Origin: a virus
Length of the DNA stretch: 64,000 bases
Strand: one strand, 5' to 3'
IMG/VR virus record: IMGVR_UViG_3300020039_000026
Positions 6,150 through 43,233 of this stretch are shown piece by piece (position 1 is the stretch's first letter; every line of letters begins with the position of its first letter). The notes below the pieces were generated by a model. That model was not told where the DNA came from. It searched no databases and saw nothing but the letters and a program-made list of their open reading frames with translations. Both the position numbers and the translations under genes were made by a program.

Positions 6150-6153
6150 AAAT

Positions 6154-12991: not shown

Positions 12992-13747
12992 ATGAAGCCG
13001 CATAAATACAAGCCGATCTGCAAGGCTGGAGCGATGCTGCTCACAGAAGCCATCCTTTGGCAAGCTGGCCTTGATTGGCGAGAAAGTGACAGAATCCTCC
13101 AGCACAAAAATCGAAAGGACTTGCTGAGGCTGAAAAAGAACGTGGAGAGATTTTTCCGTTCTCAGTGGTTCGAGGATTTAACAGGGCTGGATGGGCGGGC
13201 GGTATTCCGCGAGCTCAGCGGCGGAAAGGATTTTATGAGCAAACCGTTTTGCACAGGCATGTACGGCGGAAAGTTTATGCCCATGCATAAAGGGCATCTG
13301 TACTGTCTAAAACAGGCATCGCGGCTGTGCGATAAAGTATATCTTATTTGCACGACAGGCGGTACGGACGAAGAAAGAATTGCGGGTGAAATTGAGCGCG
13401 GAGACACGGAGATCGGGGAATATCTTACCCCGGAATTTCGGCTGGAGCAAATCAAGCGTGCGGCCGCTATGCTTGATAACGTCGTCCCGGTCATGGTAGA
13501 TTTATCTTCCTGCCGCGATGAAAATGGCAATGAGGATTGGGATATGGAAACGCCCATTATCCTTGAAGCCTGCGGCGAACCCTTCGATGCCGTTTTTGGC
13601 AGCGAAGAATCCTATGCTCCGTACTTCAACCGGGCATATCCCGGTGCAGAGTACGTTTTGATAGATTGCGACCGGGCAGAGGTTCCTATCAGCGCGACAA
13701 AAGTTCGCGCCATGTCCAAGGACGAAGCGAAAGGATGGATGGTGTAA
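12992..13747 (+). CDS. NadR-type nicotinamide-nucleotide adenylyltransferase (NMNAT domain only) with about 85-aa N-terminal extension
   Basis: GGKFMPMHKGHLYCLKQASRLCDKVYLI matches the E. coli NadR NMNAT segment [34 protein letters not shown] matches ISGAQIR. No ribosylnicotinamide kinase domain. GAAGGAGG RBS. Confidence 0.65.
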   Translation: MKPHKYKPICKAGAMLLTEAILWQAGLDWRESDRILQHKNRKDLLRLKKNVERFFRSQWFEDLTGLDGRAVFRELSGGKDFMSKPFCTGMYGGKFMPMHKGHLYCLKQASRLCDKVYLICTTGGTDEERIAGEIERGDTEIGEYLTPEFRLEQIKRAAAMLDNVVPVMVDLSSCRDENGNEDWDMETPIILEACGEPFDAVFGSEESYAPYFNRAYPGAEYVLIDCDRAEVPISATKVRAMSKDEAKGWMV

Positions 13748-14467
13748 GTGTTTCATCTGGATTTCAAAAGAAGTTTCAAAAGCCTGAAATGGTACGAATG
13801 GGTCATGGCGATCATTATGATTGCCATTGCAGCTTGGGCGATGGTCTCCGCGTTCATCCATCCCAGTCCCAACGGGAACCCCGCCTGGTTGACCGTAATC
13901 AACTTCGTTAGCGCAGTGTGCGGGGTGATCTGCATCTTCTTCTGCGCTAAGGCAAACATCGGCAACTACATATTCGGCATCATCAACACGGTCGTATATG
14001 CCATTTACCTGATGTACTGGAAGATATACGGCACTTTCTTCCTGGAGGTTCTGTACTACCTGCCCACCAATATTGCCGGATGGTATCTCTGGACATGCTA
14101 TCGCGATTCCGATGATAGGAATATTACCATGTCCAAAAAATTGACGCCGAAACAAAACGCAATCGTTGCATTGTTCGTTGCTGCGACAACGGTGTTATAC
14201 CATGCAATTCTCGTTGCTGTGGGCGGCAATGTTGCCTGGTTGGATGCGGCCACCGTTGCCATCGGCCTTGTAGCCACATTCCTGCAAATGAAGCGATACA
14301 GAGAACAGTATGTATGGTGGCTTATCACAGACGTGGTTGCTGTCGCCATGTATATTGTTCATTTCGATCCCGTGTATCTCACGAAGAAATCAATCTATCT
14401 GATTATGGCGATTATCGGCTTAATTAACTGGGTTAAACTCAGCCAGAAAAATGTCGCCAACGAATAA
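13748..14467 (+). CDS. pnuC: PnuC-family nicotinamide riboside transporter
   Basis: 239 aa, about 7 predicted TM helices, PnuC-like aromatic-rich pattern (WYLW, NxxxW). Classic pnuC-nadR adjacency. Confidence 0.6.
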   Translation: MFHLDFKRSFKSLKWYEWVMAIIMIAIAAWAMVSAFIHPSPNGNPAWLTVINFVSAVCGVICIFFCAKANIGNYIFGIINTVVYAIYLMYWKIYGTFFLEVLYYLPTNIAGWYLWTCYRDSDDRNITMSKKLTPKQNAIVALFVAATTVLYHAILVAVGGNVAWLDAATVAIGLVATFLQMKRYREQYVWWLITDVVAVAMYIVHFDPVYLTKKSIYLIMAIIGLINWVKLSQKNVANE

Positions 14468-15082: not shown

Positions 15083-15159
15083 CTGGGTGTAGCGAAGCTT
15101 GGTATCGCGCTTGATTTGGGATCAAGAGATCGCGGGTTCAAGTCCCACCACCCAGACCA
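15083..15159 (+). tRNA. tRNA-Pro (anticodon TGG), CCA encoded
   Basis: Acceptor CTGGGTG/CACCCAG, D-stem GCGA/TCGC, anticodon stem CTTGA/TCAAG with loop TTTGGGA, T-arm GCGGG-TTCAAGT-CCCAC (one C-A mismatch), ACCA end. Confidence 0.7.
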
Positions 15160-15556
15160 TTGGAAAGCGCATCTTTCCAATCTGTATGAAAGACTACCGT
15201 GAGCGGAGGACGCAGCGGATAGGCACCATGATGTCACGTCTTTTGTATAGAAAACGAATCAAAATACGATATATGATAGGCGTAGGCTACTGCGGCTTTA
15301 TTAAGAAGAAACGGATGCTACCCTGATGCGCGGGGAGCGGCAGTGAAAAGTTCCGTGTCGCATGATGATTCCTGGTTACATATGTAGATTGGGTGGTACG
15401 CGAGATCATCCAGGGCGAAGAAGCTGAAGTTCGTTCCGGATAGAAGAAACTGAGCATACGAGGAGCGGTCCGGAGAGGGTATGGAGAACCTCTGATATAA
15501 GTTCTGCCATGCGTTGTAGTTTGCTTGGTTTCGCCAGGATTCATCATGCAATGTGA

Positions 15557-15629
15557 GGGGCCGTAGCTCAATCGGCAGAGCGCCTGCTTTGCAAGCAGGA
15601 GGTAAGGGGATCGTAACCCCTCGGCTCCA
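15557..15629 (+). tRNA. tRNA-Ala (anticodon TGC) with non-canonical T-loop ATCGTAA
   Basis: Acceptor GGGGCCG/CGGCTCC (G3-U70 pair typical of tRNA-Ala), D-stem GCTC/GAGC, anticodon loop TTTGCAA, T-arm AGGGG-ATCGTAA-CCCCT. No CCA encoded. Confidence 0.6.
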
Positions 15630-15659
15630 TTCCTATTTGACTGTTCCGGAGGTTTTCCC

Positions 15660-15833
15660 ATGGCTGAATCGCAAGAGTATACGATCGTGTTTACGCCGGA
15701 TTGCTTTCACCCGGATATCAAAATCACCATTGCAGTACCGGCCGACCATGACGCGGAAGAATACATCGACCAGTATCTGGAATCCATTCTAAATAATAAT
15801 ATCCTGTATAACTGCGAATGGTCGTTTGCTTAA
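15660..15833 (+). CDS. Small hypothetical protein (57 aa)
   Basis: ATG ORF below the ORF-track size cutoff. Plausible acidic small protein between tRNAs. Confidence 0.3.
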   Translation: MAESQEYTIVFTPDCFHPDIKITIAVPADHDAEEYIDQYLESILNNNILYNCEWSFA

Positions 15834-15919
15834 TTGACCGCTTCAACATTTTGGGATATCAAACGTAATAAACACGTTACCTGCTGGATGCCGCTTCCCG
15901 AACATCCGAAGGAGAAAAC

Positions 15920-16105
15920 ATGAAGTGCAAAGACTGTAAATACTGGCAGATGGAAGATGAACCACCCGGCATCTCAGAGTTTATGGAATGTACACGCATT
16001 GACGAAAACGACCCTGACTGGTGGAAGAAGTGGCATTTTCGCGGGCCGGAAGATTCATGCGAATACGGGGAAAAGAAAGGAAGTTGGCAATCGCCCTTTG
16101 GATAG
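15920..16105 (+). CDS. Small Cys-rich protein
   Basis: 61 aa with GGAGAAAACATG RBS. CKDCKYW...C...C pattern suggests a zinc-binding fold. Confidence 0.35.
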   Translation: MKCKDCKYWQMEDEPPGISEFMECTRIDENDPDWWKKWHFRGPEDSCEYGEKKGSWQSPFG

Positions 16106-16162
16106 AGCCCTGTGTGAAATCCTCCGCATAGTGCAGAATGCTTTTCAGTTACGCAGCTCTAT

Positions 16163-16247
16163 GTCCCTGTGGTGGAATTGGCAGACGCGGGGGAATTAAA
16201 ATCCCTCGTCTTCGGACGTGTGAGTTCAAATCTCACCAGGGACACCA
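16163..16247 (+). tRNA. tRNA-Leu (anticodon TAA), class II with long variable arm, CCA encoded
   Basis: Acceptor GTCCCTG/CAGGGAC, D-arm GTGGTGGAATTGGCAGACGC (Leu-like), anticodon loop ATTAAAA, variable hairpin CGTC-TTCG-GACG, T-arm GTGAG-TTCAAAT-CTCAC, ACCA. Confidence 0.7.
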
Positions 16248-16249
16248 AA

Positions 16250-16570
16250 GGAATAACTGAAAAACGGGTTGGGAGGAAACAAGCTTTATTCTCGCTGCCA
16301 CCCAAAGGCAGAGAAGCAGATGGCGTACTGCACCCGTCACATAGCGTAGGTTATTCCATCCTGATGTATCCCGGCGAACAGGCCAAAAGCCGGGTGGTGG
16401 AGTGGACCCAGAGGGACGACGCGTGGGGGTGGTATCCTACGCAAATAAACCGCCAGCACAACGACTCCCTGTAGCTGGTAAACCAAAAGGCAGGCGTTTT
16501 CGTGGAGGGATACCGTAGAAGCGGAACGCAGAAGGCCAATGGTATGGGATTTACATTCATGCGGTTTGCC
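16250..16570 (+). ncRNA. Structured noncoding region with a conserved hairpin motif (16362-16398) and nested inverted repeats
   Basis: No ORF. GGAATAAC (16251) pairs with GTTATTCC (16349). GCGTAGG (16342) pairs with CCTACGC (16439). Motif TGATGTATCCCGGCGAACAGGCCAAAAGCCGGGTGGT recurs at 16652 with compensatory stem changes. Confidence 0.35.
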
Positions 16571-16575
16571 CATAA

Positions 16576-16648
16576 GGCTCCTTAGCTCAATCTGCAGAGT
16601 ATCTGACGATTAATCAGTATGATGTTGGTTCAAATCCAGCAGGAGCCA
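16576..16648 (+). tRNA. tRNA-like gene with non-canonical anticodon loop CGATTAA (G at position 33, nominal anticodon ATT). Identity unassigned.
   Basis: Perfect 7-bp acceptor GGCTCCT/AGGAGCC, D-arm GCTC-AATCTGCA-GAGT, T-arm GTTGG-TTCAAAT-CCAGC, 73 nt. Anticodon stem TCTGA/TCAGT has a terminal T-T mismatch and the loop lacks U33. Confidence 0.4.
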
Positions 16649-16649
16649 G

Positions 16650-17010
16650 ATTGATGTATCCCGATGAACAATAAAAATCGGGTGGTATGCTGTGGCTACA
16701 GGCGGAGTAGCGCTCCGCAGGGCTCCCGTTCCTAACCCTGGCCATGAATGCCTGTGGGGCTCATGGCCAAAGAACGGCTTCTGTGCGGGTAGCCTGGCGG
16801 CGATGGGTTCGATTCCCATGACTCGCGCAAGTGGCCGGGTAGCGCCCGGCTGATGTGAGCGTCCGCGCAACACCTCACAAAGAATGACAATGGCCGCTGA
16901 AAACGTACTTCGGCACATGTCCGGTCGCATGACTTCCCTCGACCGTCAGGGTGCATGACACGATCCGTCAGCGAAGCACGATAATCTAAGCGGCAAGCGC
17001 CCATTTCAGT
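16650..17010 (+). ncRNA. GC-rich structured noncoding region starting with the second copy of the covarying hairpin motif (16651-16686) and containing a tRNA T-arm-like element ATGGG-TTCGATT-CCCAT (16808-16824)
   Basis: Only antisense-looking ORFs. Multiple local hairpins (GGCGGAGTAGCGCTCCGC, GGCCATGAATGCCTGTGGGGCTCATGGCC). The T-arm-like element is followed by GACTCGC, which could pair with GCGGGTA upstream as a minihelix. Confidence 0.3.
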
Positions 17011-17094
17011 AATTCATTTGAAAGGTGGTATACATATGGAAATCCTGTTAACCAAGAAATCCCCTATGTGTATGCACGCCAGTAAGGAGTCACT

Positions 17095-17499
17095 ATGAGC
17101 AATTGGACACATGTAGCGGCCATCGTCCGCCTGGACTGTATTCGTCCACTGTATGACAGGGATCCTAATATGGATGACCTGTTCGGAAAAGAATGTTTGT
17201 GGGATGCGCCGGGAGAAGTTCGGAGCGACGCGGAGAAGCATCCTGAAAACTACCTGCCAACCGGAAGCGAGGGAAGCCTGCATAAAAGCGTGTGGATTAA
17301 TCCGAACCGTCAGGAGATTCCCGCCTTTGTCATTTCCATTTTCGGTGATCTGCGCGATCATGATTCTTCCCAGGAAATCATTGAGTGGTTTAAGAAGAAA
17401 TGCGAAAAGGCGATGGAGTTCCATTGCTTTATTCGCAATGCTGTGATTACTGCGGAGAATGAATGCAATGGTTCCGCGCATTGGGAGTACGAAGAATAG
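17095..17499 (+). CDS. Hypothetical protein
   Basis: 134-aa ORF with AAGGAG RBS. Confidence 0.5.
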   Translation: MSNWTHVAAIVRLDCIRPLYDRDPNMDDLFGKECLWDAPGEVRSDAEKHPENYLPTGSEGSLHKSVWINPNRQEIPAFVISIFGDLRDHDSSQEIIEWFKKKCEKAMEFHCFIRNAVITAENECNGSAHWEYEE

Positions 17500-17574
17500 G
17501 CCGAATGATCCCGTACATCAAACGTTCCCGAATTACGGTGGTAAGCTGACCGGCGAAAGCCTACGCGCCGAAAA

Positions 17575-17596
17575 TCGGATTTATGCCCGCCCGGTT
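17575..17596 (+). terminator. Hairpin terminator candidate just upstream of tRNA-Gly
   Basis: GCCCGCC-CGGTT-GGCGGGC followed by TTTG. Confidence 0.4.
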
Positions 17597-17668
17597 GGCG
17601 GGCTTTGCAGCCGTAGTGTAATGGCAATCACACCGTCCTTCCAAGTCGGGTTTGCGGGTTCGAGTCCC
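17597..17668 (+). tRNA. tRNA-Gly (anticodon TCC)
   Basis: Acceptor GCAGCCG/CGGCTGC, anticodon stem CCGTC/GTCGG (one T-T mismatch), loop CTTCCAA, T-arm GCGGG-TTCGAGT-CCCGT. No CCA. Confidence 0.6.
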
Positions 17669-17673
17669 GTCGG

Positions 17674-17775
17674 CTGCTTTTATGGGAGAGTAACCAAGAG
17701 GTCAAAGGTGCGAGACCGTAAATCTCGCGTTCTGATATGCCGCGCTAAAACAGAACTTCGCTGGTTCAAATCCAG
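17674..17775 (+). tRNA. tRNA-Tyr-like (anticodon GTA) with unusually long 28-nt variable arm and C at position 33. About 102 nt, possibly aberrant.
   Basis: Acceptor GGGAGAG/CTCTCCC with one extra nt before it. Tyr-like D-arm AACCAAGAGGTCAAAGGT. Anticodon stem CGAGA/TCTCG with loop CCGTAAA. Variable arm GTTCTG-ATATGCCGCGCTAAAA-CAGAAC. T-arm GCTGG-TTCAAAT-CCAGT. Confidence 0.4.
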
Positions 17776-17783
17776 TCCTCTCC

Positions 17784-17872
17784 CATTTTCTTTGGAAGGT
17801 TGGCTGAGCCTGGCTGAAAGCACCGGTCTTGAAAACCGGCAGCCCCAAAAGGGGCTCGTGGGTTCAAATCCC
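17784..17872 (+). tRNA. tRNA-Ser (anticodon TGA), class II
   Basis: Acceptor GGAAGGT/ACCTTCC with G73 discriminator, anticodon stem CCGGT/ACCGG, loop CTTGAAA, variable hairpin AGCCCC-AAAA-GGGGCT, T-arm GTGGG-TTCAAAT-CCCAC. Confidence 0.7.
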
Positions 17873-17905
17873 ACACCTTCCGCTTTTTGATTGGAGGAAT
17901 AAATC

Positions 17906-18325
17906 ATGACGGAATATCAACGGCAGGCAGAAGATTTTTTAGCCCGCAGCGGGACGACCATGAAAATCACACGCGACGGCGATGTGCGCGGCTTCCCGTT
18001 TGACAAAAGCGATCATCATATGCATGAGAAGTATCTCATCTCCATGCGTCGCGGCTGTCGCTCCTATGAGTTTCCTTTTTATGACTGTGCGGCGAACTTC
18101 CACACAAACAAGCGGCCAACCGCATATGATGTTCTGTCTTGTCTGGAAAAGTACGAAGTACCATCGGATGATTGGGATTTTGCACATGAGTTCGGCTACG
18201 ACATCCACGATAAAGAAAGCTTCAATCGCGTGTCCAAAATCCGTAAGGCGTGTGAAGAGCAATATGCCGCCCTGTATCTTATGTTCGGGGATCAATGGAT
18301 GGAAGAACTTAGGCAAATCAACTAA
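17906..18325 (+). CDS. Hypothetical protein
   Basis: 139-aa ORF with GGAGGAATAAATCATG RBS. Confidence 0.5.
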   Translation: MTEYQRQAEDFLARSGTTMKITRDGDVRGFPFDKSDHHMHEKYLISMRRGCRSYEFPFYDCAANFHTNKRPTAYDVLSCLEKYEVPSDDWDFAHEFGYDIHDKESFNRVSKIRKACEEQYAALYLMFGDQWMEELRQIN

Positions 18326-18382
18326 CCTATTGTCTGTTCATGAAAAGGATTAAGAATAGATAATCCAAAGCAGGTACTCCTT

Positions 18383-18787
18383 TTGGTTGTAAATGGGGGA
18401 ATATCTTTGTATATCCGAAAAAGTATCCATTCCATTGAGTCCGTCTACGAAGCCGTTCATGATACGATGTTCAATCCGAAAACCACATACATCCTATTCG
18501 ATGGCGATGAAATCAAAAGCACAAGTCAGCGCTATCAGGTATTTTTTACAAAAGGGATTCGCTGCGTTTCGTGCGGCATCGAAGGGAAATATTTTGCCAA
18601 GGAAAAAGGGCATGGTTCATCACAAGATCGCTATCACCTTAATTTATACGCCATTGACGAAAATGGCAAGGAAGTCCTGATGACCAAAGACCATATCATC
18701 CCAAGATCAAAGGGTGGTTTGAATCGTCTGGAAAACTATCAAACGATGTGTCAAATCTGCAATAGCAAAAAGGGAAGCGAACATTGA
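18383..18787 (+). CDS. HNH endonuclease, free-standing
   Basis: C-terminal HNH motif HIIPRSKGGLNRLENYQTMCQICNSKKGSEH with CxxC zinc ligands. Confidence 0.6.
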   Translation: MVVNGGISLYIRKSIHSIESVYEAVHDTMFNPKTTYILFDGDEIKSTSQRYQVFFTKGIRCVSCGIEGKYFAKEKGHGSSQDRYHLNLYAIDENGKEVLMTKDHIIPRSKGGLNRLENYQTMCQICNSKKGSEH

Positions 18788-18794
18788 TAGGTCT

Positions 18795-19595
18795 ATGGAT
18801 AAAGCATGGGTACAAGAAAAGGAAGCACAAAGGGCTGAAGAAATACGGCTTACCAAAGAAACTATCCGCCGGAAAATCTTAGACGCAGGGCTTCAGGAAT
18901 ATGTCGATGTTCTCTTAGCTGGCGTAGATAAGAGCTTTGATCTTCACGTATCATTTTTGTGCGGTTCAATAGAAATACTTGACGCAATTAAGAAGAAAAC
19001 TACTGGCAACAAAGAGCTATTTGCTTCTATTATCGAAAAGTATTGCTTGTTTGAGCATAGCATCCGCGAAGAGTTGGAAAAACTTTTTCAGCTTAAATAC
19101 AGCTTCCAGCAATTTTCCGACTCAGATCTGGTCGAGTTTGATGGGGATATTATCATTACAGATCCTTGCTATGTCATGCGAGACGACGCCGAAGATGATT
19201 GGGAAAAGTGTTCTTGCGGCGAGAACATGGACGAACTCGGCATCCATCACTTCATGAGCCGCAGTACCATTATTGGCGACTGGAGCTGTACTGTCTACAA
19301 TACAGATAATCATAGGAAGATAGGTGAGTTCTGCGCCGATGCGGGAATGGTTTCTGTTCTCCTGCTAAATGAAGTCCTTCAATACAATCCGTCCTTCGAC
19401 TATCATATAAATAGGAAGTGGACGACGGCGCTGATAAAGAATTTCAAAGGAACCGTTCAGTTTGTTGTTCACGAGGTACACTTTGAGTACAATGGCGAAG
19501 ATCATGTGGGCTACGAGGTGGAAGTAGTTGGGCATGGTGTCAATAAGAAAACCGGCAAGCCTTTCAACTTTTCGTCAAGACAAACCGGGTTATAA
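18795..19595 (+). CDS. Hypothetical protein
   Basis: 266-aa ORF. Confidence 0.5.
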   Translation: MDKAWVQEKEAQRAEEIRLTKETIRRKILDAGLQEYVDVLLAGVDKSFDLHVSFLCGSIEILDAIKKKTTGNKELFASIIEKYCLFEHSIREELEKLFQLKYSFQQFSDSDLVEFDGDIIITDPCYVMRDDAEDDWEKCSCGENMDELGIHHFMSRSTIIGDWSCTVYNTDNHRKIGEFCADAGMVSVLLLNEVLQYNPSFDYHINRKWTTALIKNFKGTVQFVVHEVHFEYNGEDHVGYEVEVVGHGVNKKTGKPFNFSSRQTGL

Positions 19596-19631
19596 AATTA
19601 CGCTTTTATTAATCGATAAGGAGGTAAACCT

Positions 19632-20042
19632 GTGGCATTTTGGAATAAAAAGAAGAAAAAAGATGAAAAGCAGGAACTTCCTATTAAAATATTATCCCCT
19701 TGCGAGCGTGGTGAACACCGTTACAAGGATTTTGATTGGTATATCAAAACATATGTTGATCAGTCCTATTATAACAACCGATATGTCGTTACGGTGATCG
19801 AACCATATGTCTGCATCCATTGCGGGCACCGCGAAGATCAGGAACTCGGCAAATGGATTTTTGCAAAGAAAACGGATAAAACCGCATTCGTTGAGCATCT
19901 CAGCAAGAATCCAAACATCAAGCCAATCATCGAAGTGGAAGACGCCATTCACGATATGCAGCTTGTCGATCGAGAGTATCTTTCAATTTTTCAGCAGCTC
20001 CATCCAGATAAAAAGATTTTGGATGAAGCCAAGCCGGATTAA
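19632..20042 (+). CDS. Hypothetical protein with Cys/His pairs
   Basis: 136-aa ORF with AAGGAGG RBS. CERGEHRY...CIHCGH suggests a zinc-binding fold. Its 3-prime end overlaps the tRNA-Thr start. Confidence 0.5.
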   Translation: MAFWNKKKKKDEKQELPIKILSPCERGEHRYKDFDWYIKTYVDQSYYNNRYVVTVIEPYVCIHCGHREDQELGKWIFAKKTDKTAFVEHLSKNPNIKPIIEVEDAIHDMQLVDREYLSIFQQLHPDKKILDEAKPD

Positions 20043-20105
20043 CTCAATTGGCAGAGTGCCGCTTTTGTACTGCGGAAGCTGCGGGTTCAATTCCTGTATC
20101 CGGCT
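20033..20105 (+). tRNA. tRNA-Thr (anticodon TGT)
   Basis: Acceptor GCCGGAT/ATCCGGC, D-stem ACTC/GAGT, anticodon stem CCGCT/TGCGG (terminal T-T), loop TTTGTAC, T-arm GCGGG-TTCAATT-CCTGT. No CCA. Confidence 0.55.
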
Positions 20106-20107
20106 CT

Positions 20108-20181
20108 GCCCCTGTCGCCTAAATGGAATAAGGCACCGGTTTCGTACTCCGGAGATGCTGGATCGTACCCAGCCAGGGGCT
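20108..20181 (+). tRNA. tRNA-Thr (anticodon CGT) with non-canonical T-loop ATCGTAC
   Basis: Acceptor GCCCCTG/CAGGGGC, D-stem GCCT/AGGC, anticodon stem CCGGT/TCCGG (terminal T-T), loop TTCGTAC, T-arm GCTGG-ATCGTAC-CCAGC. No CCA. Confidence 0.5.
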
Positions 20182-20205
20182 TTTGATTTGTAATGAGGTG
20201 ATATT

Positions 20206-20994
20206 ATGCCAGACTCCCTCGGTGACCGAATGAAAGCATATGAGAATATTTCCAGAATCTATCTTACGAAACGCCTGCCGGTTATTATCCGAATCGACGG
20301 GCGTGCGTTTCATACTCTTACTCGCGGTTTTGACCGTCCGTTTGATACTGTGTTTTCACGCTCTATGTGGGATACGGCGGCAGAGCTATGTAAGGAAATT
20401 GGCGGTGCAAAATTAGCTTACACCCAAAGCGATGAAATTTCCATCCTCCTCACCAATGACGATAACCTCGAAACCCAGCCGTGGTTCGATAATAATCTGC
20501 AAAAGCTGGTCAGTGTCGCCGCTTCGACCGCCACCAAGGAATTCAATAATATCTTCGACTGGTATTGGATCAATAATGATCCTGATGGAGAATTGCGGCT
20601 TGCTTATTCCAGAGCCTCCGGCGAAGCTACATTTGACGCCAGGGCATTCGTTCTTCCTCATGACGAGGTATGCAATTATTTCATTTGGCGGCAGCAGGAT
20701 GCCGTCCGCAATTCTATCCAGATGGCGGCTCAAAGCGTCTATTCTCACAAGGAACTGCAAGGGAAAAATCAAAACGACCTTCAGGAAATGTTGTTTCAGA
20801 AAGGAATCAATTGGAATAATTATGGTCCGTGGCACAAGCGCGGCGTGTGCGTAATTAAAAAGTTTGCGGAAGAGCAGGCCACCGGCGAGGAACAGGCACG
20901 TCTGCACTGGGTAGTGGATATGAATATTCCTATCTTCACTCAGGATCGTGGCTATATCGAAAACGCTTTGAAAGGGAATCAGAATGACACTTGA
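20206..20994 (+). CDS. Thg1-like protein (tRNA-His guanylyltransferase family 3-prime-to-5-prime polymerase)
   Basis: N-terminal MKAYENISRIYLTKRLPVIIRIDGRAFHTLTRGF matches the Thg1/TLP signature (FEYV...P.VVRIDGR.FH.F). 262 aa. Immediately downstream of the tRNA array. Confidence 0.6.
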   Translation: MPDSLGDRMKAYENISRIYLTKRLPVIIRIDGRAFHTLTRGFDRPFDTVFSRSMWDTAAELCKEIGGAKLAYTQSDEISILLTNDDNLETQPWFDNNLQKLVSVAASTATKEFNNIFDWYWINNDPDGELRLAYSRASGEATFDARAFVLPHDEVCNYFIWRQQDAVRNSIQMAAQSVYSHKELQGKNQNDLQEMLFQKGINWNNYGPWHKRGVCVIKKFAEEQATGEEQARLHWVVDMNIPIFTQDRGYIENALKGNQNDT

Positions 20995-22006
20995 AGAAAT
21001 CAAATCCACAATCGCAGGAAGCTCGTATGATTTTCTTAGAAATGATGAGCATTTGGTCGGCAGGATTGCTTTCATATGTCTCGGTGGTTCTTATGCATAC
21101 GGTACGAATGTAGAAGGTTCTGACCTGGATATTCGCGGCTGTGCATTAAATAGCGCAAGCGAGCTGATCGGCTTTCATCGTTTCGAGCAGCTTGTCGATT
21201 CCAAAACCGACACGACGATTTACGCCTTCAACAAATTGATCCGTCTCCTCCATTGCTGCAATCCAAATGTAATAGAGATGCTCGGTTGCAAACCTGAGCA
21301 TTATTTTTTCATGTCGGATGTCGGCAGGCAAATGATCGAGAACAGAAAAATGTTCTTGTCGAAACGTGCCGCCTATACATTCGGTGGCTATGCGTTCTCA
21401 CAGCTTCGTCGCCTTGAGAACGCCATTGCCCGTGACAGGCTTGATCAAGGCAGGAAAGAAGTTCATATCCGAAACAGCATTGATAAGGTTGTCAAGAATT
21501 TTAATAACGAAGGAAGAGCCATCCCTGTTTCATACACGCTTGATTTAGGCGCAGCCGTCCATGATGACCTGGAAACCGAAACATATATCACCATGGATTT
21601 AGGATATTATCCCGTCAGGGATTTAAAGGCGCTGGTCAACGAAATCAATAATGTCATTAACGACTATCAGAACGATCTGCATGGAAGAAATAAAAAGAAA
21701 GATGATTTTCATCTGAATAAACACGCCATGCATTTAATTCGCCTGTATTTGATGGCCATCGATATTTTGGAAAAGGAAGAAGTCGTCACATATAGAGAGA
21801 AGGATCACGACCTTTTGATGAGCATTAGGAATGGAAAATTCCAGCACGAAGACGGTACGTTCGACAGCTCATTCTTCGATTTGGTGCACCATCTTTCTCA
21901 TCGCATGGAATACGCGAAGGAAAACACGTCTCTTCCAAACAGTCCAGATGCAGACAAGATTGAAAAATTTGTAATGGATGTTAATCGACGAGTTATTTGT
22001 GATTAG
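20984..22006 (+). CDS. Pol-beta-superfamily nucleotidyltransferase (GS...DxD), specific family unassigned
   Basis: ICLGGSYAYGTNVEGSDLDIRG is the minimal NTase G[SG]x9-13DxD motif, followed by a roughly 250-aa helical region. Start overlaps the Thg1-like gene. Confidence 0.5.
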   Translation: MTLEEIKSTIAGSSYDFLRNDEHLVGRIAFICLGGSYAYGTNVEGSDLDIRGCALNSASELIGFHRFEQLVDSKTDTTIYAFNKLIRLLHCCNPNVIEMLGCKPEHYFFMSDVGRQMIENRKMFLSKRAAYTFGGYAFSQLRRLENAIARDRLDQGRKEVHIRNSIDKVVKNFNNEGRAIPVSYTLDLGAAVHDDLETETYITMDLGYYPVRDLKALVNEINNVINDYQNDLHGRNKKKDDFHLNKHAMHLIRLYLMAIDILEKEEVVTYREKDHDLLMSIRNGKFQHEDGTFDSSFFDLVHHLSHRMEYAKENTSLPNSPDADKIEKFVMDVNRRVICD

Positions 22007-22014: not shown

Positions 22015-22386
22015 ATGAATTCAGTGCCGGTATGCCGTGATTGGTGCGTCGAAGCGCAAGTTATTTCCAAAAGAGAGGCGGACGCATTGTCTATCGCCCT
22101 CGGAAACTATCTTGATGAGCCCGGTAACTGGGATAACGGGTTTTATCAGGCATCATTCTTTTCGGAAGGGATTCGAGATGATGAAATAATCGAATCTGCC
22201 ATAAAGGAATTCTCTTTGCAGCATCCGACCCTGACTATTTCAGTCTATGTAAAGCAGGATCCTGACGATTGCCCCGATAAAATGAAATTCCGAAACGGCA
22301 CAGTCAGATACTACACAGGGATCGTCAAATACTACGAGTACGATCCTCAGACCGGGCAAACCTCTGAAATTCCGGATAAGGAGTAG
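22015..22386 (+). CDS. Hypothetical protein
   Basis: 123-aa ORF. Confidence 0.4.
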   Translation: MNSVPVCRDWCVEAQVISKREADALSIALGNYLDEPGNWDNGFYQASFFSEGIRDDEIIESAIKEFSLQHPTLTISVYVKQDPDDCPDKMKFRNGTVRYYTGIVKYYEYDPQTGQTSEIPDKE

Positions 22387-26466: not shown

Positions 26467-26688
26467 ATGAGGTCACAATTGGTTTATAAAAAAATCGGCC
26501 ATGAATTGCTGGCGAATAATATGGATACACAGATGCTCGCAGAGGCGACCGGGATCCCATATTATACGCTAAGAAGCCGATTTCGAGGGGAGTCTTCTTT
26601 CACCCTGGATGACGCAATCAGGATACATAAAGTCATCGGTTCGCACATGTCTATTGAACAATTATTTGAGAGAGATGATGTCCATTGA
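26467..26688 (+). CDS. Small helix-turn-helix DNA-binding regulator candidate
   Basis: 73 aa. LAEATGIPYYTLRSRFRGESSFTLDDAIRI looks like an HTH recognition region. AAAGGAGG RBS. Confidence 0.4.
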   Translation: MRSQLVYKKIGHELLANNMDTQMLAEATGIPYYTLRSRFRGESSFTLDDAIRIHKVIGSHMSIEQLFERDDVH

Positions 26689-32973: not shown

Positions 32974-32984
32974 TCGGAGGTTTT

Positions 32985-37203: not shown

Positions 37204-38295
37204 ATGAGAAAATTGGCAAGCATTAAAACGATTGCCTCTATCTCCCCTATCGAAGGCAAGGACCGTATTGGTCTTGCCACGGTGGATGGATGGCAGGTCA
37301 TCGTTCAAAAAAGTGAGTTTTCTCCGGGGGATCGATGTGTTTATGTCGAAATCGATTCTGTTATGCCGGAGAAGCCGGAGTTTGAATTTCTGCGCAAGAA
37401 GGATTTTCGTATTCGCACCATGAAGATGGCTGGCGTTATCAGCCAGGGAATCTGTTTCCCGCTCTCCATTCTGCCTCCGAAGGAAAACGGAGAATACGAA
37501 TTGGAGGAAGACGTTACCGAAATCCTCGGCATCACCCAATACGAGCCAACTATGGACGCCGACCCAGAACCGGATGAAACCGGTAAGAGCAAGGTGCGAA
37601 AGTACCCTGCTTTTTTGATGCGTTTTAAATGGTTTAGAAGCCTTGTCCTGCCAAAGAAAAGGAACAAGGGCTTCCCGACCTTCGTCAGCAAAACCGATGA
37701 AATACGAATCCAGAATATTCCGAACATCGTTCATGATAAACGGGAATGGATCGCCACGGAAAAAGTGGATGGCCAGTCTGGAACATTCGCGCTGGTTCGT
37801 CACAAGAGCCGTATACCATTTAAAAAAGATACGTTTGAGTATATCGTCTGCTCCAGGAACTTGCGGCTATTGAAGCCGGATCGCACCCCCTATTGGCGGG
37901 TTTCCGATCGGTATCAGATCGAAAATGCGCTAAGAAATATGATCGGCGATCGCGATTGGATCGCCATCCAGGGAGAATGCGTCGCTCCCAATGTGCAGGG
38001 TAATAAATACAAGGTCAAGGAGCCAGATCTCTATGTATTTAATCTCATTTATCCAACGGGGAGAGTCGATTCCATTCGCGCAAAATCCATCATCGAGCAG
38101 CACGGCATGAAGTTCGTGCCTATCATTGGCACGGGTTACGTCCTGCCAGATTCCGTCGAAGAAGTTTTGGCTTATGCCACAGGTCAGAGCACACTGGCAG
38201 ATACGCTCAGAGAGGGAATTGTATTCCGGAGCAACGACGGGAAACATTCGTTCAAGGCTGTTTCGCCGGAATTCCTGCTGGCTTATAACGAATAA
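37204..38295 (+). CDS. ATP-dependent RNA ligase, Rnl5-like architecture (N-terminal domain plus nucleotidyltransferase domain, no C-terminal OB)
   Basis: Ligase motif I KxDG (WIATEKVDGQSGTF) about 190 aa into the protein. Motif IV/V-like LREGIVFRS...FKAVSPEF. 363 aa, matching the size and layout of DraRnl/NgrRnl-type ligases. Confidence 0.55.
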   Translation: MRKLASIKTIASISPIEGKDRIGLATVDGWQVIVQKSEFSPGDRCVYVEIDSVMPEKPEFEFLRKKDFRIRTMKMAGVISQGICFPLSILPPKENGEYELEEDVTEILGITQYEPTMDADPEPDETGKSKVRKYPAFLMRFKWFRSLVLPKKRNKGFPTFVSKTDEIRIQNIPNIVHDKREWIATEKVDGQSGTFALVRHKSRIPFKKDTFEYIVCSRNLRLLKPDRTPYWRVSDRYQIENALRNMIGDRDWIAIQGECVAPNVQGNKYKVKEPDLYVFNLIYPTGRVDSIRAKSIIEQHGMKFVPIIGTGYVLPDSVEEVLAYATGQSTLADTLREGIVFRSNDGKHSFKAVSPEFLLAYNE

Positions 38296-40578: not shown

Positions 40579-41016
40579 GTGCGTATGTATTACCACGAAG
40601 AACAAATGAATCTTCTCAGCGTTCCACAAGGTTATATGCTTGCACATTGTATCAGCGGAGACTACGCCTTGGGTGCCGGGATTGCCAAACAAATCGATCA
40701 GGCATTCGGCATGAAGGACATGTTGAAAACTCGCTGGCGCTTTATCGATTACGATTCATGCGGGCCAATTTGCCTCACATGCGCAAATGTGTATAATCTC
40801 GTCACAAAACCAAAGTTTTGGAATAAGCCAACGCTTGGTACGCTGCGTGAGGCGCTTTTATCAATGAGGCGGAACGCGGAAACAGACGGAGTCAAGAAGA
40901 TCGCCATGCCGAAAATCGGCTGTGGGCTTGACAGACTTAATTGGGAAGATGTCAAAAAGATCATTATGGAAATCTTTGATGATATGGACGTGGAAATTCT
41001 CGTATGCTACCTATAA
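40579..41016 (+). CDS. Macro-domain (ADP-ribose binding/processing) protein candidate
   Basis: LAHCISGDYALGAGIAKQI and IAMPKIGCGLDRLNWEDVKKII resemble the macro-domain Gly-rich loop and the IAFPxISTGxYGxP block. 145 aa. Confidence 0.45.
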   Translation: MRMYYHEEQMNLLSVPQGYMLAHCISGDYALGAGIAKQIDQAFGMKDMLKTRWRFIDYDSCGPICLTCANVYNLVTKPKFWNKPTLGTLREALLSMRRNAETDGVKKIAMPKIGCGLDRLNWEDVKKIIMEIFDDMDVEILVCYL

Positions 41017-42744: not shown

Positions 42745-43233
42745 GTGCAGACAGAGGAGGAATATATGAGAGTTATCTTTCTCGATATTGACGGTGTCCT
42801 GAATGAAGCCTATTCGCATTCCAGAGCGCCAAATGGGTGTATCGGCGTCGATGATGATAAGGTGCAAAGGCTACGGCAAATTGTTGATGCCACCGGGGCA
42901 AAAATCGTCCTGTGCTCCACCTGGAAATCTGGTTGGAGCCGCGATCCGGAGCTTTGCGACCACGACGCGGAGTATTTAAACAAAAAGCTCAGCCGTGAAC
43001 ACCTTCGCATCCTTGATAAAACGCAGGATCAGATTATAGATCGTGGCGCTGGTATTCTCCGCTGGCTTGAAAAAAGAAGCGACAAGCCAGCATGGATCGT
43101 TCTGGATGACGATATCTTCAAGGATTATGAAGAATGTGGTGTCATGTCGCATTTGGTCAAAACGTCTTTCTATAAAGGCGGATTGCAGGACGAGCATGTG
43201 AAAAGGGCGATCGACCTGCTGATGGAGGGGTGA
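42745..43233 (+). CDS. HAD-superfamily phosphatase (DxDG motif I), Pnkp-phosphatase-like
   Basis: VIFLDIDGVLN is HAD motif I. Motif II/III candidates LCSTWK and WIVLDDD. 162 aa. Confidence 0.5.
   Translation: MQTEEEYMRVIFLDIDGVLNEAYSHSRAPNGCIGVDDDKVQRLRQIVDATGAKIVLCSTWKSGWSRDPELCDHDAEYLNKKLSREHLRILDKTQDQIIDRGAGILRWLEKRSDKPAWIVLDDDIFKDYEECGVMSHLVKTSFYKGGLQDEHVKRAIDLLMEG

What the first reader, a model, noticed from the sequence alone, without database searches (positions are those of the whole stretch)
15083..22006. Phage tRNA array (9 tRNA or tRNA-like genes) coupled to a Thg1-like 5-prime tRNA repair enzyme and a minimal nucleotidyltransferase
Within 5 kb the phage encodes tRNA-Pro(TGG), Ala(TGC), Leu(TAA), an unassigned tRNA-like gene, Gly(TCC), a Tyr(GTA)-like gene, Ser(TGA), Thr(TGT) and Thr(CGT), interleaved with small ORFs. 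Only Pro and Leu encode CCA. Immediately downstream are a Thg1-like protein (MKAYENISRIYLTKRLPVIIRIDGRAFH) and, start-overlapped with it, a GS...DxD nucleotidyltransferase of unassigned family. Thg1-like proteins repair tRNA 5-prime ends; an NTase beside them could add CCA or be a regulatory nucleotidyltransferase. With the Rnl5-like ligase and HAD phosphatase further downstream, this looks like a tRNA supply-and-repair strategy against host anticodon nucleases or tRNA-depleting defenses.
Basis: partly seen in the sequence, partly recalled or inferred. Interest (0 to 1): 0.65.

Follow-up and report, generated by a model that had tools for sequence, protein, structure and literature searches.

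The report
Phage tRNA island with tRNA-end repair genes
A large gut phage carries nine tRNA or tRNA-like genes followed by two overlapping genes for enzymes that rebuild broken tRNA ends, which is a real but already anticipated kind of phage counter-defence kit; an undescribed structured RNA also sits among the tRNAs.

Summary
Rfam finds nine tRNA or tRNA-like genes at 15083-20181 and ARAGORN finds eight. The next gene (20206-20994) is a bacterial-type Thg1-like 3'-5' polymerase, 56% identical to the characterised B. thuringiensis TLP. It overlaps by 11 nt a nucleotidyltransferase (20984-22006).

That NTase is not of unassigned family. It is RlaP (PF10127), whose characterised members add 1-2 nucleotides to the 3'-OH of broken tRNA. 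It is not a CCA-adding enzyme. In related phages, 23 of 32 RlaP clusters have a true CCA-adding enzyme abutting RlaP, and 12 of 32 have a Thg1-like gene within 10 kb. This window has no CCA enzyme.

An Rnl5-type RNA ligase, a HAD_SAK_2 phosphatase and a Macro domain lie 15-21 kb downstream. No polynucleotide kinase was found.

Best reading: tRNA supply plus a tRNA-end repair kit suited to 3'-OH/5'-phosphate damage. The Aravind group predicted this kind of system in 2016 and 2021, so this is a new member of a known kind.

The gaps between tRNAs are partly conserved structured RNAs. One is a roughly 110-175-nt motif absent from Rfam. It has at least 107 phage copies, and most start exactly 4 nt after a tRNA 3' end.

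The parts
15083..15159 (+). tRNA-Pro(UGG), CCA encoded
   Evidence: ARAGORN; Rfam tRNA 62.6 bits; 3' end read
15160..15556 (+). Conserved structured non-coding RNA between tRNA-Pro and tRNA-Ala. A 16-bp long-range helix pairs 15360-15375 with 15534-15549.
   Evidence: No ORF is called here in the same phage (L087). MFE z-score is -3.9. Sequence is 75-90% conserved with L088, with one compensatory change in the long-range helix. L088 carries a drum RNA (RF02958) inserted inside it.
15557..15629 (+). tRNA-Ala(UGC), no CCA
16163..16247 (+). tRNA-Leu(UAA), CCA encoded
16576..16648 (+). Irregular tRNA-like gene: nominal anticodon AUU, loop CGAUUAA with G33, and a U-U mismatch at the top of the anticodon stem. 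No CCA.
   Evidence: Rfam 53.1 bits; ARAGORN 'Asn(att)'. The closest tRNAs among the fetched loci are Lys(UUU) and Thr(UGU). No orthologue in L088.
16830..17002 (+). Undescribed structured RNA motif with hairpin H1, hairpin H2 (GUGAG..CUCAC), the single-stranded stretch AGAAUGACAAUG, and closing helix H3 around a variable hairpin. It follows a T-arm-like element at 16784-16829.
   Evidence: Model R1 scores 94.9 bits here. The sequence pattern has 107 IMG/VR hits. All 5 H1 pairs covary and 98.8% of cells are paired. H3 covaries. No Rfam family matches. The MFE fold recovers H1-H3.
17607..17678 (+). tRNA-Gly(UCC), no CCA
17684..17785 (+). Irregular class-II tRNA-Tyr(GUA)-like gene: C33, a variable arm of about 30 nt, and one extra nucleotide between the T and acceptor stems. 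No CCA.
   Evidence: Rfam 34 bits, above the gathering score of 29. ARAGORN rejects it. The orthologue at L088 4868-4970 has the same loop CCGUAAA and compensatory changes in the variable arm.
17794..17883 (+). tRNA-Ser(UGA), no CCA
18383..18787 (+). HNH endonuclease inside the tRNA island
   Evidence: Pfam HNH_5 and HNH; conserved in L088
20033..20106 (+). tRNA-Thr(UGU), no CCA; its 5' end overlaps the stop of ORF 19632-20042
20108..20181 (+). tRNA-Thr(CGU), no CCA; lies 24 nt upstream of the Thg1-like start codon
   Evidence: the same Thr-Thr-Thg1-RlaP order occurs in L088
20206..20994 (+). Bacterial-type Thg1-like protein (TLP), a templated 3'-5' RNA polymerase
   Evidence: Pfam Thg1 1.6e-30. 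PHROG 4717, 4.7e-96. BtTLP 4KGK 5.8e-76, 56% identity, with D31 and S75-D76-E77 conserved.
20984..22006 (+). RlaP-family (PF10127) Pol-beta nucleotidyltransferase; its start overlaps the Thg1-like gene by 11 nt
   Evidence: Pfam RlaP 6.7e-15. 7819 homologues, those listed all PF10127. Invariant G35, S36, D47, D49, D76 and K246. AF2 model with pLDDT 94, showing an NTase domain plus a helical domain.
22015..22386 (+). 123-aa protein of unknown function in the same tight gene string
   Evidence: no significant family match; an ORF of similar size occupies the same position in L088
22422..23009 (+). DUF5662 protein, probably a divergent HD-superfamily phosphohydrolase; a paralogue lies at 27848-28306
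37204..38295 (+). Rnl5-type ATP-dependent RNA ligase (N-terminal OB fold plus ligase domain), distal to the island
   Evidence: Pfam PF21189 + PF09414. NgrRnl 5COT 8.5e-44. TIGR02306 scores 150 bits against a cut-off of 151.15.
40579..41016 (+). Macro domain protein, distal
   Evidence: Pfam Macro 9e-08
42745..43233 (+). HAD_SAK_2 phosphatase ('Swiss Army Knife' RNA-repair HAD domain), distal
   Evidence: Pfam PF18143 1.9e-25

Best explanation
This is the tRNA island of a large, probably temperate phage of gut Bacillota. It ends in an operon-like string: tRNA-Thr, tRNA-Thr, Thg1-like polymerase, RlaP, a 123-aa protein, and an HD-like DUF5662 protein.

The island supplies seven canonical tRNAs and two irregular tRNA-like RNAs. 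Seven of the nine lack CCA and so need a CCA-adding enzyme, which here must be the host's.

The two enzymes rebuild tRNA ends from opposite sides. The Thg1-like protein activates a 5'-phosphate end and adds nucleotides in the 3'-to-5' direction, templated by the 3' strand of the acceptor stem. This restores 5'-truncated tRNAs. [quoted passage not shown] Such an end can then be sealed by the phage's Rnl5-type ligase, or finished by a CCA-adding enzyme.

Together with the supplied tRNAs, this keeps translation running when host or competitor nucleases nibble or cut tRNAs.

Shown: the identity of the genes, their catalytic motifs, their overlap, and their recurrent linkage in relatives. Inferred: the activities, by homology to BtTLP, Pf/PaRlaP and NgrRnl. 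Also inferred: co-transcription with the tRNAs, the counter-defence role, and the nature of the damaging nuclease.
For: - Gene identities are established.
- The 11-nt overlap and gaps of 8-35 nt in a same-strand string are seen.
- The order Thr-Thr-Thg1-RlaP-x-DUF5662 is kept in a relative whose RlaP is 82% identical. That relative also carries RtcB inside its tRNA array.
- The nearest IMG/VR relatives (70% identity) keep the Thg1/RlaP overlap.
- Among 32 dereplicated RlaP clusters of this clade, 23 have a CCA-adding enzyme abutting RlaP. Twelve have a Thg1-like gene within 10 kb in at least 8 different arrangements, 9 have Rnl5 and 3 have RtcB.
- Fully contiguous trios exist: L119 has Thg1-RlaP-CCA and L025 has RlaP-CCA-Thg1.
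- Thg1-like genes are embedded in or next to tRNA arrays in about 9 of 80 other phage loci. Eighteen of 80 have tRNAs within 10 kb.
- Biochemistry of the families: RlaP adds 1-2 NMP to RNA 3'-OH, prefers broken-tRNA mimics, and restores aminoacylation of over-trimmed tRNA (bioRxiv 10.64898/2025.12.29.696909). Bacterial TLPs repair 5'-truncated tRNA (abstract of PMC3061083, listed).
- The surrounding 9-43 kb is rich in auxiliary and counter-defence genes: a full NAD salvage set, Macro and MazF.
- A review of jumbo phages groups RlaP, CCA-adding enzyme and Thg1 as restorers of lost RNA-end nucleotides (PMC7824862).
Against: - There is no experiment on any phage TLP or on this RlaP clade.
- From the Thg1 side the link is weak. 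Only 7 of 64 dereplicated phage Thg1-like clusters have RlaP within 10 kb.
- No CCA-adding enzyme, RtcB or polynucleotide kinase is present in the 64 kb.
- The ligase and phosphatase are 15-21 kb away in the replication module, so their partnership is conjecture.
- All nine tRNA genes have properly paired 5' ends, so nothing in the phage's own tRNAs demands 5' repair.
- The promoter and terminator scans were at chance level, so co-transcription is unproven.
- Codon usage in the window shows no preference for the codons read by the supplied tRNAs. This gives no evidence for supply by codon demand.
Confidence: 0.6

Rival explanations
1. Maturation rather than defence repair. The Thg1-like protein, RlaP and, in relatives, the CCA enzyme finish the ends of the phage's own tRNA precursors. 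The array is densely packed with tRNAs, irregular tRNA-like genes and structured RNAs that abut tRNA 3' ends. Processing of such transcripts could leave ragged ends that these enzymes tidy.
For: - The enzymes sit at the end of the tRNA island, 24 nt after the last tRNA.
- Seven of nine tRNAs lack CCA.
- Two tRNA-like genes are structurally irregular.
- A conserved RNA motif starts exactly 4 nt after a tRNA 3' end in 50 of 78 distinct copies.
- Pistol ribozyme and RAGATH RNAs occur in the same kind of arrays.
- CCA-adding enzymes are tightly coupled to RlaP in relatives.
Against: - All nine genes encode complete, paired acceptor stems, so no 5' editing is needed.
- Many phages with similar arrays lack these enzymes. 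Only 18 of 80 Thg1 loci have tRNAs nearby.
- RlaP addition is untemplated and error-prone according to the preprint, which suits emergency repair better than routine maturation.
Confidence: 0.2
2. The Thg1-like protein is a tRNA-His guanylyltransferase, as phage annotations say. It would add G-1 to a phage or host tRNA-His.
For: PHROG 4717 and GenBank phage records name the family 'tRNA-His guanylyltransferase'. Some phage arrays near Thg1-like genes include tRNA-His.
Against: - No tRNA-His occurs in this array or anywhere in the 64-kb window.
- The three phage tRNA-His genes examined near Thg1-like genes all encode G at -1.
- The protein is 56% identical to BtTLP (5.8e-76). It matches eukaryotic and archaeal Thg1 enzymes only at 1e-7 to 1e-16.
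- Bacterial TLPs are reported to act in tRNA 5'-end repair (abstract of PMC3061083).
Confidence: 0.05
3. The NTase is the phage's CCA-adding enzyme, or a regulatory or toxin-type minimal NTase such as MNT, MenT or a CD-NTase.
For: It has the generic GS...DxD Pol-beta motif. There is a weak profile match to an MNT antitoxin over 49 residues (E 0.003). Seven of nine tRNAs lack CCA.
Against: - It matches PF10127 above threshold and has no PolyA_pol (PF01743) match.
- Orthologues sit directly next to a separate, genuine CCA-adding enzyme.
- No HEPN or toxin partner is adjacent.
- Fold similarity to aminoglycoside NTases is only generic, with TM about 0.3.
Confidence: 0.04
4. The adjacency is incidental. 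The tRNAs serve only translation supply, and the two enzymes are unrelated cargo of a variable auxiliary region.
For: The region is a mosaic of auxiliary genes with an HNH endonuclease. Gene content differs between relatives: RtcB, ECF transporter and CCA genes are variably present.
Against: The Thg1/RlaP overlap and the linkage to CCA, Rnl5 and RtcB recur in many independent arrangements. All these partners act on tRNA or RNA ends.
Confidence: 0.1

Closest known systems
Bacillus thuringiensis Thg1-like protein (BtTLP; PDB 4KGK/4KGM; PMC3701042, PMC3061083)
   Same: The two proteins are 56% identical over 235 aligned residues (E 5.8e-76). The RIDG and SDE catalytic motifs are conserved, and length and domain order match. 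The expected activity is the same: templated 3'-5' repair of 5'-truncated tRNA.
   Different: This one is phage-encoded. It has an insertion of about 14 residues at positions 119-139, it sits at the end of a tRNA array, and it is translationally overlapped with RlaP. The in vivo role of BtTLP is unknown, and the activity of this protein is untested.
RlaP nucleotidyltransferases (PF10127): P. fluorescens and P. aeruginosa RlaP, and T4 NrdC.11 (Burroughs & Aravind 2016; bioRxiv 10.64898/2025.12.29.696909)
   Same: It matches the same Pfam family, has three conserved catalytic Asp residues, and has an NTase domain plus a C-terminal helical domain. Linkage to RNA-repair genes is present.
   Different: The characterised enzymes sit between RtcB and RtcA. 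This phage clade is instead coupled mainly to a CCA-adding enzyme (23 of 32 clusters) and to Thg1-like genes (12 of 32). A ligase lies within 10 kb in only 9 of 32 clusters for Rnl5 and 3 of 32 for RtcB. Sequence is too distant for any PDB sequence match.
Phage T4 tRNA repair (Pnkp + Rnl1 against the PrrC anticodon nuclease), and the RNA-repair complements of jumbo phages (PMC7824862)
   Same: A phage carries both its own tRNAs and enzymes that restore damaged tRNAs. The review names RlaP, CCA-adding enzyme and Thg1 as restorers of lost terminal nucleotides.
   Different: No polynucleotide kinase or Rnl1/Rnl2 was found. The ligase is Rnl5-type, which seals nicks in duplex RNA. [quoted passage not shown] The genome is about 106-114 kb, so it is not a jumbo phage.
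Orphan structured RNAs of phage tRNA regions: drum, skipping-rope, RAGATH, GOLLD and ROOL (PMC5737381), and, from my own knowledge, the small stable RNAs C and D of the T4 tRNA cluster
   Same: The new motif at 16830-17002 and the element at 15160-15556 are conserved structured RNAs lying between tRNAs on the same strand. In other phages they neighbour drum, RAGATH-21, RAGATH-33 and Pistol RNAs.
   Different: No Rfam 15 model matches them. The motif has a fixed 4-nt spacing from the preceding tRNA 3' end. I have not seen this spacing reported for the known motifs.

Membership tests
tRNA (Rfam RF00005) | Cloverleaf covariance-model score at or above the gathering score of 29 bits | tested here: met
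   Nine matches at 34-62.8 bits. ARAGORN confirms 8 of them.
tRNA (Rfam RF00005) | Canonical 7-nt anticodon loop with U33 and a regular acceptor/T-stem junction, as expected for a decoding tRNA | tested here: not met
   This is met for 7 genes. It is not met for 16576-16648 (G33, nominal anticodon AUU). It is also not met for 17684-17785 (C33, plus an extra nucleotide at the T/acceptor junction). These two are called 'tRNA-like' only.
Thg1 / Thg1-like proteins (PF04446) | Match to the Thg1 catalytic-domain HMM above the curated cut-off | tested here: met
   106.1 bits against a cut-off of 29.2. The C-terminal Thg1C domain scores 24.9 against 26.3, just below its cut-off.
Thg1 / Thg1-like proteins (PF04446) | Conserved metal-binding carboxylates of the palm domain (RIDG Asp and the SDE motif) | tested here: met
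   D31 and S75-D76-E77 align with identical residues of BtTLP.
Thg1 / Thg1-like proteins (PF04446) | Membership of the bacterial TLP subgroup rather than the eukaryote-type G-1-adding Thg1 subgroup | tested here: met
   E is 5.8e-76 to BtTLP. It is 2e-20 to the archaeal TLP and 5e-16 to 7e-07 to the yeast, human and other Thg1 enzymes.
Thg1 / Thg1-like proteins (PF04446) | 3'-5' templated nucleotide addition to 5'-truncated tRNA | not testable with these tools
   This needs an enzyme assay.
RlaP (PF10127) | Match to the PF10127 HMM above the curated cut-off | tested here: met
   55.9 bits against a cut-off of 23, covering profile positions 18-141 of 249. Homologues are precomputed as PF10127. 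PHROG 388 'nucleotidyltransferase' matches at 3.4e-51.
RlaP (PF10127) | Pol-beta NTase catalytic set: the G[GS] motif and three Asp residues | tested here: met
   G35, D47 and D76 are invariant, and S36 and D49 are nearly invariant (90% or more), in 62 diverse homologues.
RlaP (PF10127) | N-terminal NTase domain plus a C-terminal helical domain, with a terminal helix packing back, as in the PfRlaP crystal structure | tested here: inconclusive
   The AF2 model (pLDDT 94) has an alpha/beta N-terminal domain, a long helical C-terminal part and a final helix at 323-339. The PfRlaP coordinates were not in the PDB copy, so no superposition was possible.
RlaP (PF10127) | Genomic association with RNA ligases or other RNA-repair genes | tested here: met
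   In the window an Rnl5-type ligase lies 15 kb downstream. In the clade, Rnl5 lies within 10 kb in 9 of 32 clusters and RtcB in 3 of 32. CCA-adding enzyme is present in 23 of 32 and Thg1-like in 12 of 32.
RlaP (PF10127) | Addition of 1-2 NMP to the RNA 3'-OH | not testable with these tools
   This needs an enzyme assay.
Class-II CCA-adding enzyme (PF01743 PolyA_pol) | PolyA_pol head domain with an RNA-binding body and tail (plus HD in bacteria) | tested here: not met
   The NTase has no PF01743 match. tblastn with a relative's CCA enzyme finds nothing in the window; the best E is 0.046.
Rnl5-type RNA ligase (NgrRnl / DraRnl) | N-terminal OB domain followed by the ligase nucleotidyltransferase domain, with homology to NgrRnl or DraRnl | tested here: met
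   PF21189 + PF09414. NgrRnl matches at 8.5e-44. The DraRnl equivalog TIGR02306 scores 150 bits, just under its cut-off of 151.15.
T4-type healing-and-sealing tRNA repair pathway | A 5' polynucleotide kinase paired with a 3' phosphatase and an RNA ligase | tested here: not met
   Candidate phosphatases are present (HAD_SAK_2, a Metallophos protein and the HD-like DUF5662). No kinase domain was found among about 60 scanned ORFs of the window. The rest of the genome was not seen.

The most novel reading that the evidence does not exclude
In this gut-phage lineage, RlaP may not be mainly a ligase helper at broken anticodon loops. It may instead belong to a three-enzyme kit that rebuilds the acceptor end of tRNA. 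In that reading, RlaP restores the discriminator or last stem nucleotides that a CCA-adding enzyme cannot add, the CCA enzyme then completes the 3' end, and the Thg1-like polymerase refills the 5' strand.

The kit might also be tied to how the phage makes its tRNAs. An undescribed structured RNA with at least 107 phage copies begins exactly 4 nt after tRNA 3' ends. It could be a processing or self-cleaving element that defines those ends.
Probability: 0.15. Interest if true: 0.75.

Novelty: new member of a known kind. Interest (0 to 1): 0.4.

Why it matters
What bacterial-type Thg1-like polymerases do in living cells is still unknown, and RlaP was first characterised biochemically only in late 2025. 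This phage lineage repeatedly wires a TLP, an RlaP and usually a CCA-adding enzyme together next to tRNA arrays. That gives a concrete, testable setting for both enzymes: which tRNA ends get damaged during infection, by what, and how they are rebuilt. It also suggests that host or competitor nucleases attacking tRNA acceptor ends, not only anticodon loops, matter in gut Bacillota. Separately, the conserved RNAs between the tRNAs add to the set of orphan structured RNAs of phage tRNA regions. One of them has an unusually strict position relative to tRNA 3' ends.

Tried and rejected
- **Close cultured relative.** None exists. DNA search of 50,697 phage records gave only tRNA-level and weak Thg1 hits. 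The nearest isolate by RlaP is Clostridioides phage AR1086-1 at 44% identity. It has KptA nearby but no Thg1 or CCA enzyme.
- **Solved RlaP structure.** There was no PDB sequence or profile match. Foldseek gave only generic kanamycin-NTase-like hits with TM about 0.3. The fold could therefore not be tested against PfRlaP.
- **The NTase as a CCA-adding enzyme.** Rejected.
- **tRNA-His G-1 addition.** Rejected as the main role.
- **5' editing of mismatched phage tRNAs.** Rejected, because all acceptor stems are paired.
- **Codon-usage match to the tRNA set.** Not evident, and the host is unknown.
- **Promoter and terminator scan.** Results were at chance level.
- **Known Rfam families in the non-coding gaps (GOLLD, ROOL, drum, tmRNA, ribozymes).** There were no hits in the window at E up to 1.
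- **18-mer search for the motif core in IMG/VR.** No hits. A degenerate pattern worked.
- **Model R1 on the Thg1 and RlaP loci.** It found no members beyond its seeds.
- **Burroughs & Aravind 2016.** This paper is not held in the library. What I say about it rests on citations and on my own memory.
- **Genome-collection scan with the alignment.** It failed. The single-protein scan gave only 4 Bacillota MAG hits.

Full report
**Observation**

ARAGORN finds eight tRNA genes on the + strand between 15083 and 20181 and none elsewhere in the 64 kb. The Rfam tRNA model finds the same eight at 48-63 bits against a gathering score of 29. It adds a ninth at 17685-17784 with 34 bits. Direct reading of the 3' ends shows CCA after the discriminator only for Pro and Leu.

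Two genes are irregular:
- 16576-16648 has anticodon loop CGAUUAA, giving G33 and a nominal AUU anticodon, with a U-U mismatch at the top of the anticodon stem.
- 17684-17785 has loop CCGUAAA, giving C33 and anticodon GUA. It has a variable arm of about 30 nt and one surplus nucleotide between the T and acceptor stems. ARAGORN rejects it.

The Tyr-like gene is nonetheless conserved in a related phage (L088 4868-4970). There it has the same loop, compensatory substitutions in the long variable arm, and an encoded CCA. I therefore take it to be a real, unusual RNA gene. I found no orthologue of the AUU gene, and its function is open.

**The two proteins**

The gene at 20206-20994 matches the Pfam Thg1 domain (1.6e-30) and PHROG 4717 (4.7e-96). 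It is 56% identical over 235 aligned residues to the Bacillus thuringiensis Thg1-like protein whose structure is solved (4KGK, E 5.8e-76). The RIDG aspartate (D31) and the S75-D76-E77 motif are conserved. Eukaryotic-type Thg1 enzymes match far more weakly. It is therefore a bacterial-type TLP. That group is reported to act in tRNA 5'-end repair (abstract of PMC3061083).

The gene at 20984-22006 starts 11 nt before the TLP stop codon. It is not of unassigned family. [quoted passage not shown] It has thousands of homologues, and those listed are all precomputed as PF10127. In an alignment of 62 diverse homologues, G35, D47, D76 and K246 are invariant, and S36 and D49 are nearly so. The AlphaFold model is confident (pLDDT 94.2). 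It shows an N-terminal alpha/beta NTase domain followed by a helical domain and a terminal helix. This matches the description of the PfRlaP crystal structure. No RlaP structure was in the PDB copy, so I could not superpose them.

A December 2025 preprint reports the biochemistry of Pseudomonas RlaP enzymes:
- They add one or two NMPs to the 3'-OH of RNA.
- They prefer mimics of tRNA broken in the anticodon loop.
- They work best with Mn2+.
- They can restore aminoacylation of a tRNA that has lost a nucleotide.
- T4 NrdC.11 belongs to the family.

**Comparative context**

The same phage occurs as a 106-kb ENA contig, and its RlaP occurs on contigs up to 114 kb. A relative with 82%-identical RlaP (L088) keeps the order tRNA-Thr(UGU), tRNA-Thr(CGU), Thg1-like, RlaP, small ORFs, DUF5662. 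It also has an RtcB ligase inside its tRNA array.

I fetched 80 IMG/VR loci encoding RlaP at 51-71% identity and dereplicated them at 90% identity into 32 clusters:

| Partner gene | Clusters of 32 | Position relative to RlaP |
|---|---|---|
| Class-II CCA-adding enzyme | 23 | Usually 2-21 nt after the RlaP stop |
| Thg1-like gene | 12 | Within 10 kb, same strand, at least eight different spacings |
| Rnl5-type ligase | 9 | Within 10 kb |
| RtcB | 3 | Within 10 kb |

Contiguous trios exist: L119 has Thg1-RlaP-CCA and L025 has RlaP-CCA-Thg1. A very common relative has RlaP overlapped with a PolyA_pol + HD CCA enzyme (L082).

The link is asymmetric. Of 64 dereplicated phage Thg1-like clusters, only 7 have RlaP within 10 kb. 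Eighteen of the 80 Thg1 loci have tRNAs within 10 kb, and about nine have the Thg1-like gene embedded in or next to the array.

This window has no CCA-adding enzyme and no RtcB.

**Other repair-type genes in the window**

- 37204-38295 is an Rnl5-type ligase. It has the PHA02142 OB fold plus an RNA ligase domain, matches NgrRnl at 8.5e-44, and scores just under the DraRnl equivalog cut-off.
- 42745-43233 is a HAD_SAK_2 phosphatase.
- 40579-41016 is a Macro domain protein.
- 48232-48927 is a calcineurin-like phosphoesterase.

The first three lie among recombination and replication genes: ERF, a PD-(D/E)XK nuclease, DnaB, primase and Pol III alpha. The phosphoesterase lies just downstream, next to a DNA polymerase gene. 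They are not physically coupled to the island. I found no polynucleotide kinase among about 60 scanned ORFs.

**Mechanism**

I commit to this reading. The island supplies tRNAs, and the overlapping TLP/RlaP pair repairs tRNA ends.

- The TLP refills missing 5' nucleotides using the 3' strand as template.
- RlaP adds back one or two nucleotides at a 3'-OH.
- The product is then sealed by the Rnl5 ligase if the break is internal, or completed by a CCA-adding enzyme if it is the acceptor end. Here that enzyme must be the host's.

The three visible enzymes share a chemistry. From the RlaP preprint, RlaP needs a 3'-OH. From established knowledge of TLP activation and of Rnl5 nick sealing, those two enzymes need a 5'-phosphate. 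No kinase is visible. The kit therefore looks better suited to damage that leaves 3'-OH and 5'-phosphate ends, such as exonucleolytic nibbling or metal-dependent nucleases. [quoted passage not shown]

The gene identities, motifs, overlap and linkage are shown. The activities, co-transcription and counter-defence purpose are inferred. The promoter and terminator scans were uninformative. The window's codon usage shows no preference for the cognate codons.

The surrounding auxiliary island fits a counter-defence setting. It encodes:
- PnuC
- two NMNAT-like proteins
- PncA
- NAPRTase
- NadD
- NadE
- a Macro domain protein
- MazF
- an SPFH protein

**Rivals**

- **Maturation of the phage's own precursors.** This is the main rival, at about 0.2. 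The location and the dense, odd array favour it. The fully paired acceptor stems and the untemplated nature of RlaP addition argue against it.
- **tRNA-His G-1 addition.** This is unlikely. There is no tRNA-His in the window, and the three phage tRNA-His genes I examined near Thg1-like genes all encode G-1.
- **CCA-adding or toxin-type NTase.** Rejected.
- **Coincidental adjacency.** The recurrent linkage argues against it.

**Comparison with what is known**

Burroughs and Aravind (2016) named RlaP, as cited. The jumbo-phage survey (PMC7824862) lists RlaP, CCA-adding enzyme and Thg1 as phage enzymes that restore nucleotides lost from RNA ends, alongside phage tRNAs. The system is therefore a new member of a known, predicted kind.

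What I did not find described in the papers I could read is the tight operonic coupling of this RlaP clade to a CCA-adding enzyme and a TLP rather than to a ligase. That coupling suggests work on the acceptor end. This is the basis of my 'novel case'.

**Non-coding RNAs in the island**

The gaps are not just small ORFs.

*Element at 15160-15556.* No gene is called here in the same phage. It folds far better than shuffles (z = -3.9) and is conserved in L088. A 16-bp long-range helix (15360-15375 with 15534-15549) carries one compensatory change there. L088 has a drum RNA inserted inside it.

*Motif at 16830-17002.* This is a conserved motif with these features:
- **Conservation.** It recurs in divergent phages. 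A degenerate pattern finds 107 IMG/VR stretches.
- **Structure.** A covariance model aligns 83 copies, 50 of them distinct. All five pairs of hairpin H1 show compensatory changes and 98.8% of cells are paired. The closing helix H3 also covaries. H2 was fixed by my search pattern, so its invariance says nothing.
- **Novelty.** No Rfam 15 family matches it.
- **Position.** In 50 of 78 distinct copies it begins exactly 4 nt after the 3' end of a same-strand tRNA. In the window it follows a T-arm-like element at 16784-16829. That element shows a compensatory change relative to L088.
- **Neighbours.** In other phages these include drum, RAGATH-21, RAGATH-33, Pistol and GP20-b RNAs.

I cannot say what the motif does. 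Its fixed position suggests a role in tRNA 3'-end processing or co-processing.

**Verdict**

The NTase is RlaP, not a CCA enzyme, and 'anticodon nuclease' as the target is unproven. This is a new member of a known kind. Interest is moderate (0.4), because it offers a natural test bed for the unknown in vivo role of bacterial-type TLPs and for RlaP, and it carries an apparently undescribed tRNA-abutting RNA motif.

Noticed in passing
window 16830-17002 (+); also L088 3205-3323, L157 19430-19538, L130 3331-3492 and L173-L279: This is a structured RNA motif absent from Rfam 15. It has hairpin H1, hairpin H2 (GUGAG..CUCAC), the single-stranded stretch AGAAUGACAAUG, and helix H3 enclosing a variable hairpin. 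There are 107 IMG/VR hits. H1 and H3 covary. In 50 of 78 distinct copies the motif starts exactly 4 nt after a same-strand tRNA 3' end.
   Followed up: partly
window 15160-15556 (+): This is a conserved non-coding element of about 400 nt between tRNA-Pro and tRNA-Ala. Its MFE z-score is -3.9. A 16-bp long-range helix pairs 15360-15375 with 15534-15549. The relative L088 has a drum RNA (RF02958) inserted inside the same element.
   Followed up: partly
window 16248-16575 and 16649-16829 (+): More conserved non-coding sequence flanks the irregular tRNA. A repeated hairpin module GAUGUAUCCCGRY..RYCGGGUGGU occurs at 16362 and 16652, with compensatory differences between the two copies. A T-arm-like GGGUUCGAUUCCC element at 16784-16829 shows a compensatory change in L088.
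   Followed up: partly
window 16576-16648 and 17684-17785: These are two irregular tRNA-like genes, one with G33 and anticodon AUU, the other with C33, anticodon GUA and a giant variable arm. L088 has further odd ones at 2109-2199 (6-nt loop), 3046-3154 and 4701-4780. They could be decoys, nuclease-resistant variants or non-decoding RNAs.
   Followed up: partly
window 20033-20181: Both tRNA-Thr genes have a U31-U39 mismatch closing the anticodon loop, which effectively gives a 9-nt loop. The pair is conserved directly upstream of the Thg1-like gene in L088.
   Followed up: no
[not shown]
   Followed up: partly
window 12992-14467 and 32437-35586: The window encodes a near-complete NAD+ uptake and salvage set. 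It comprises an NMNAT-like protein (12992-13747), PnuC (13748-14467), PncA-like isochorismatase (32437-32973), NadE (32985-33770), NadD-like (33767-34387) and NAPRTase (34384-35586). This probably counters NAD-depleting defences.
   Followed up: no
window 5376-6583 and 11714-12856: A reverse transcriptase (RVT_1) lies at 11714-12856 and a DUF6273 protein at 5376-6149. A 51-nt imperfect direct repeat (6228-6278 and 6533-6583, 73% identity) lies just after the DUF6273 gene. This could be a diversity-generating retroelement.
   Followed up: no
window 56839-56913 (+): A skipping-rope RNA (RF02924) scores 57.6 bits against a gathering score of 36.7. It lies between a Clp protease gene and a FolD-like gene. 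tRNA-Thr(CGU) at 20107-20181 also gives a weak skipping-rope match of 23.9 bits.
   Followed up: no
window 31283-31714, 28318-29253, 26685-27833 and 9885-10556: A MazF/PemK toxin has no obvious antitoxin called. An SPFH/Band-7 protein, a NifS-like cysteine desulfurase and a ThiF-like protein are also present. Several of these are conserved in relatives around the RlaP locus.
   Followed up: no
window 17521-17606 (+): A short conserved non-coding stretch lies after ORF 17095-17499. It ends in a GC hairpin plus U-run that shows compensatory changes in L088 4783-4860. It may be a terminator or a small RNA just upstream of tRNA-Gly.
   Followed up: no
window 59451-61035: An excisionase-like HTH protein and a tyrosine integrase are present, and relatives also carry integrases. 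The element is therefore probably temperate. No virion genes lie in the window, so the phage assignment rests on IMG/VR relatives and PHROG matches.
   Followed up: no
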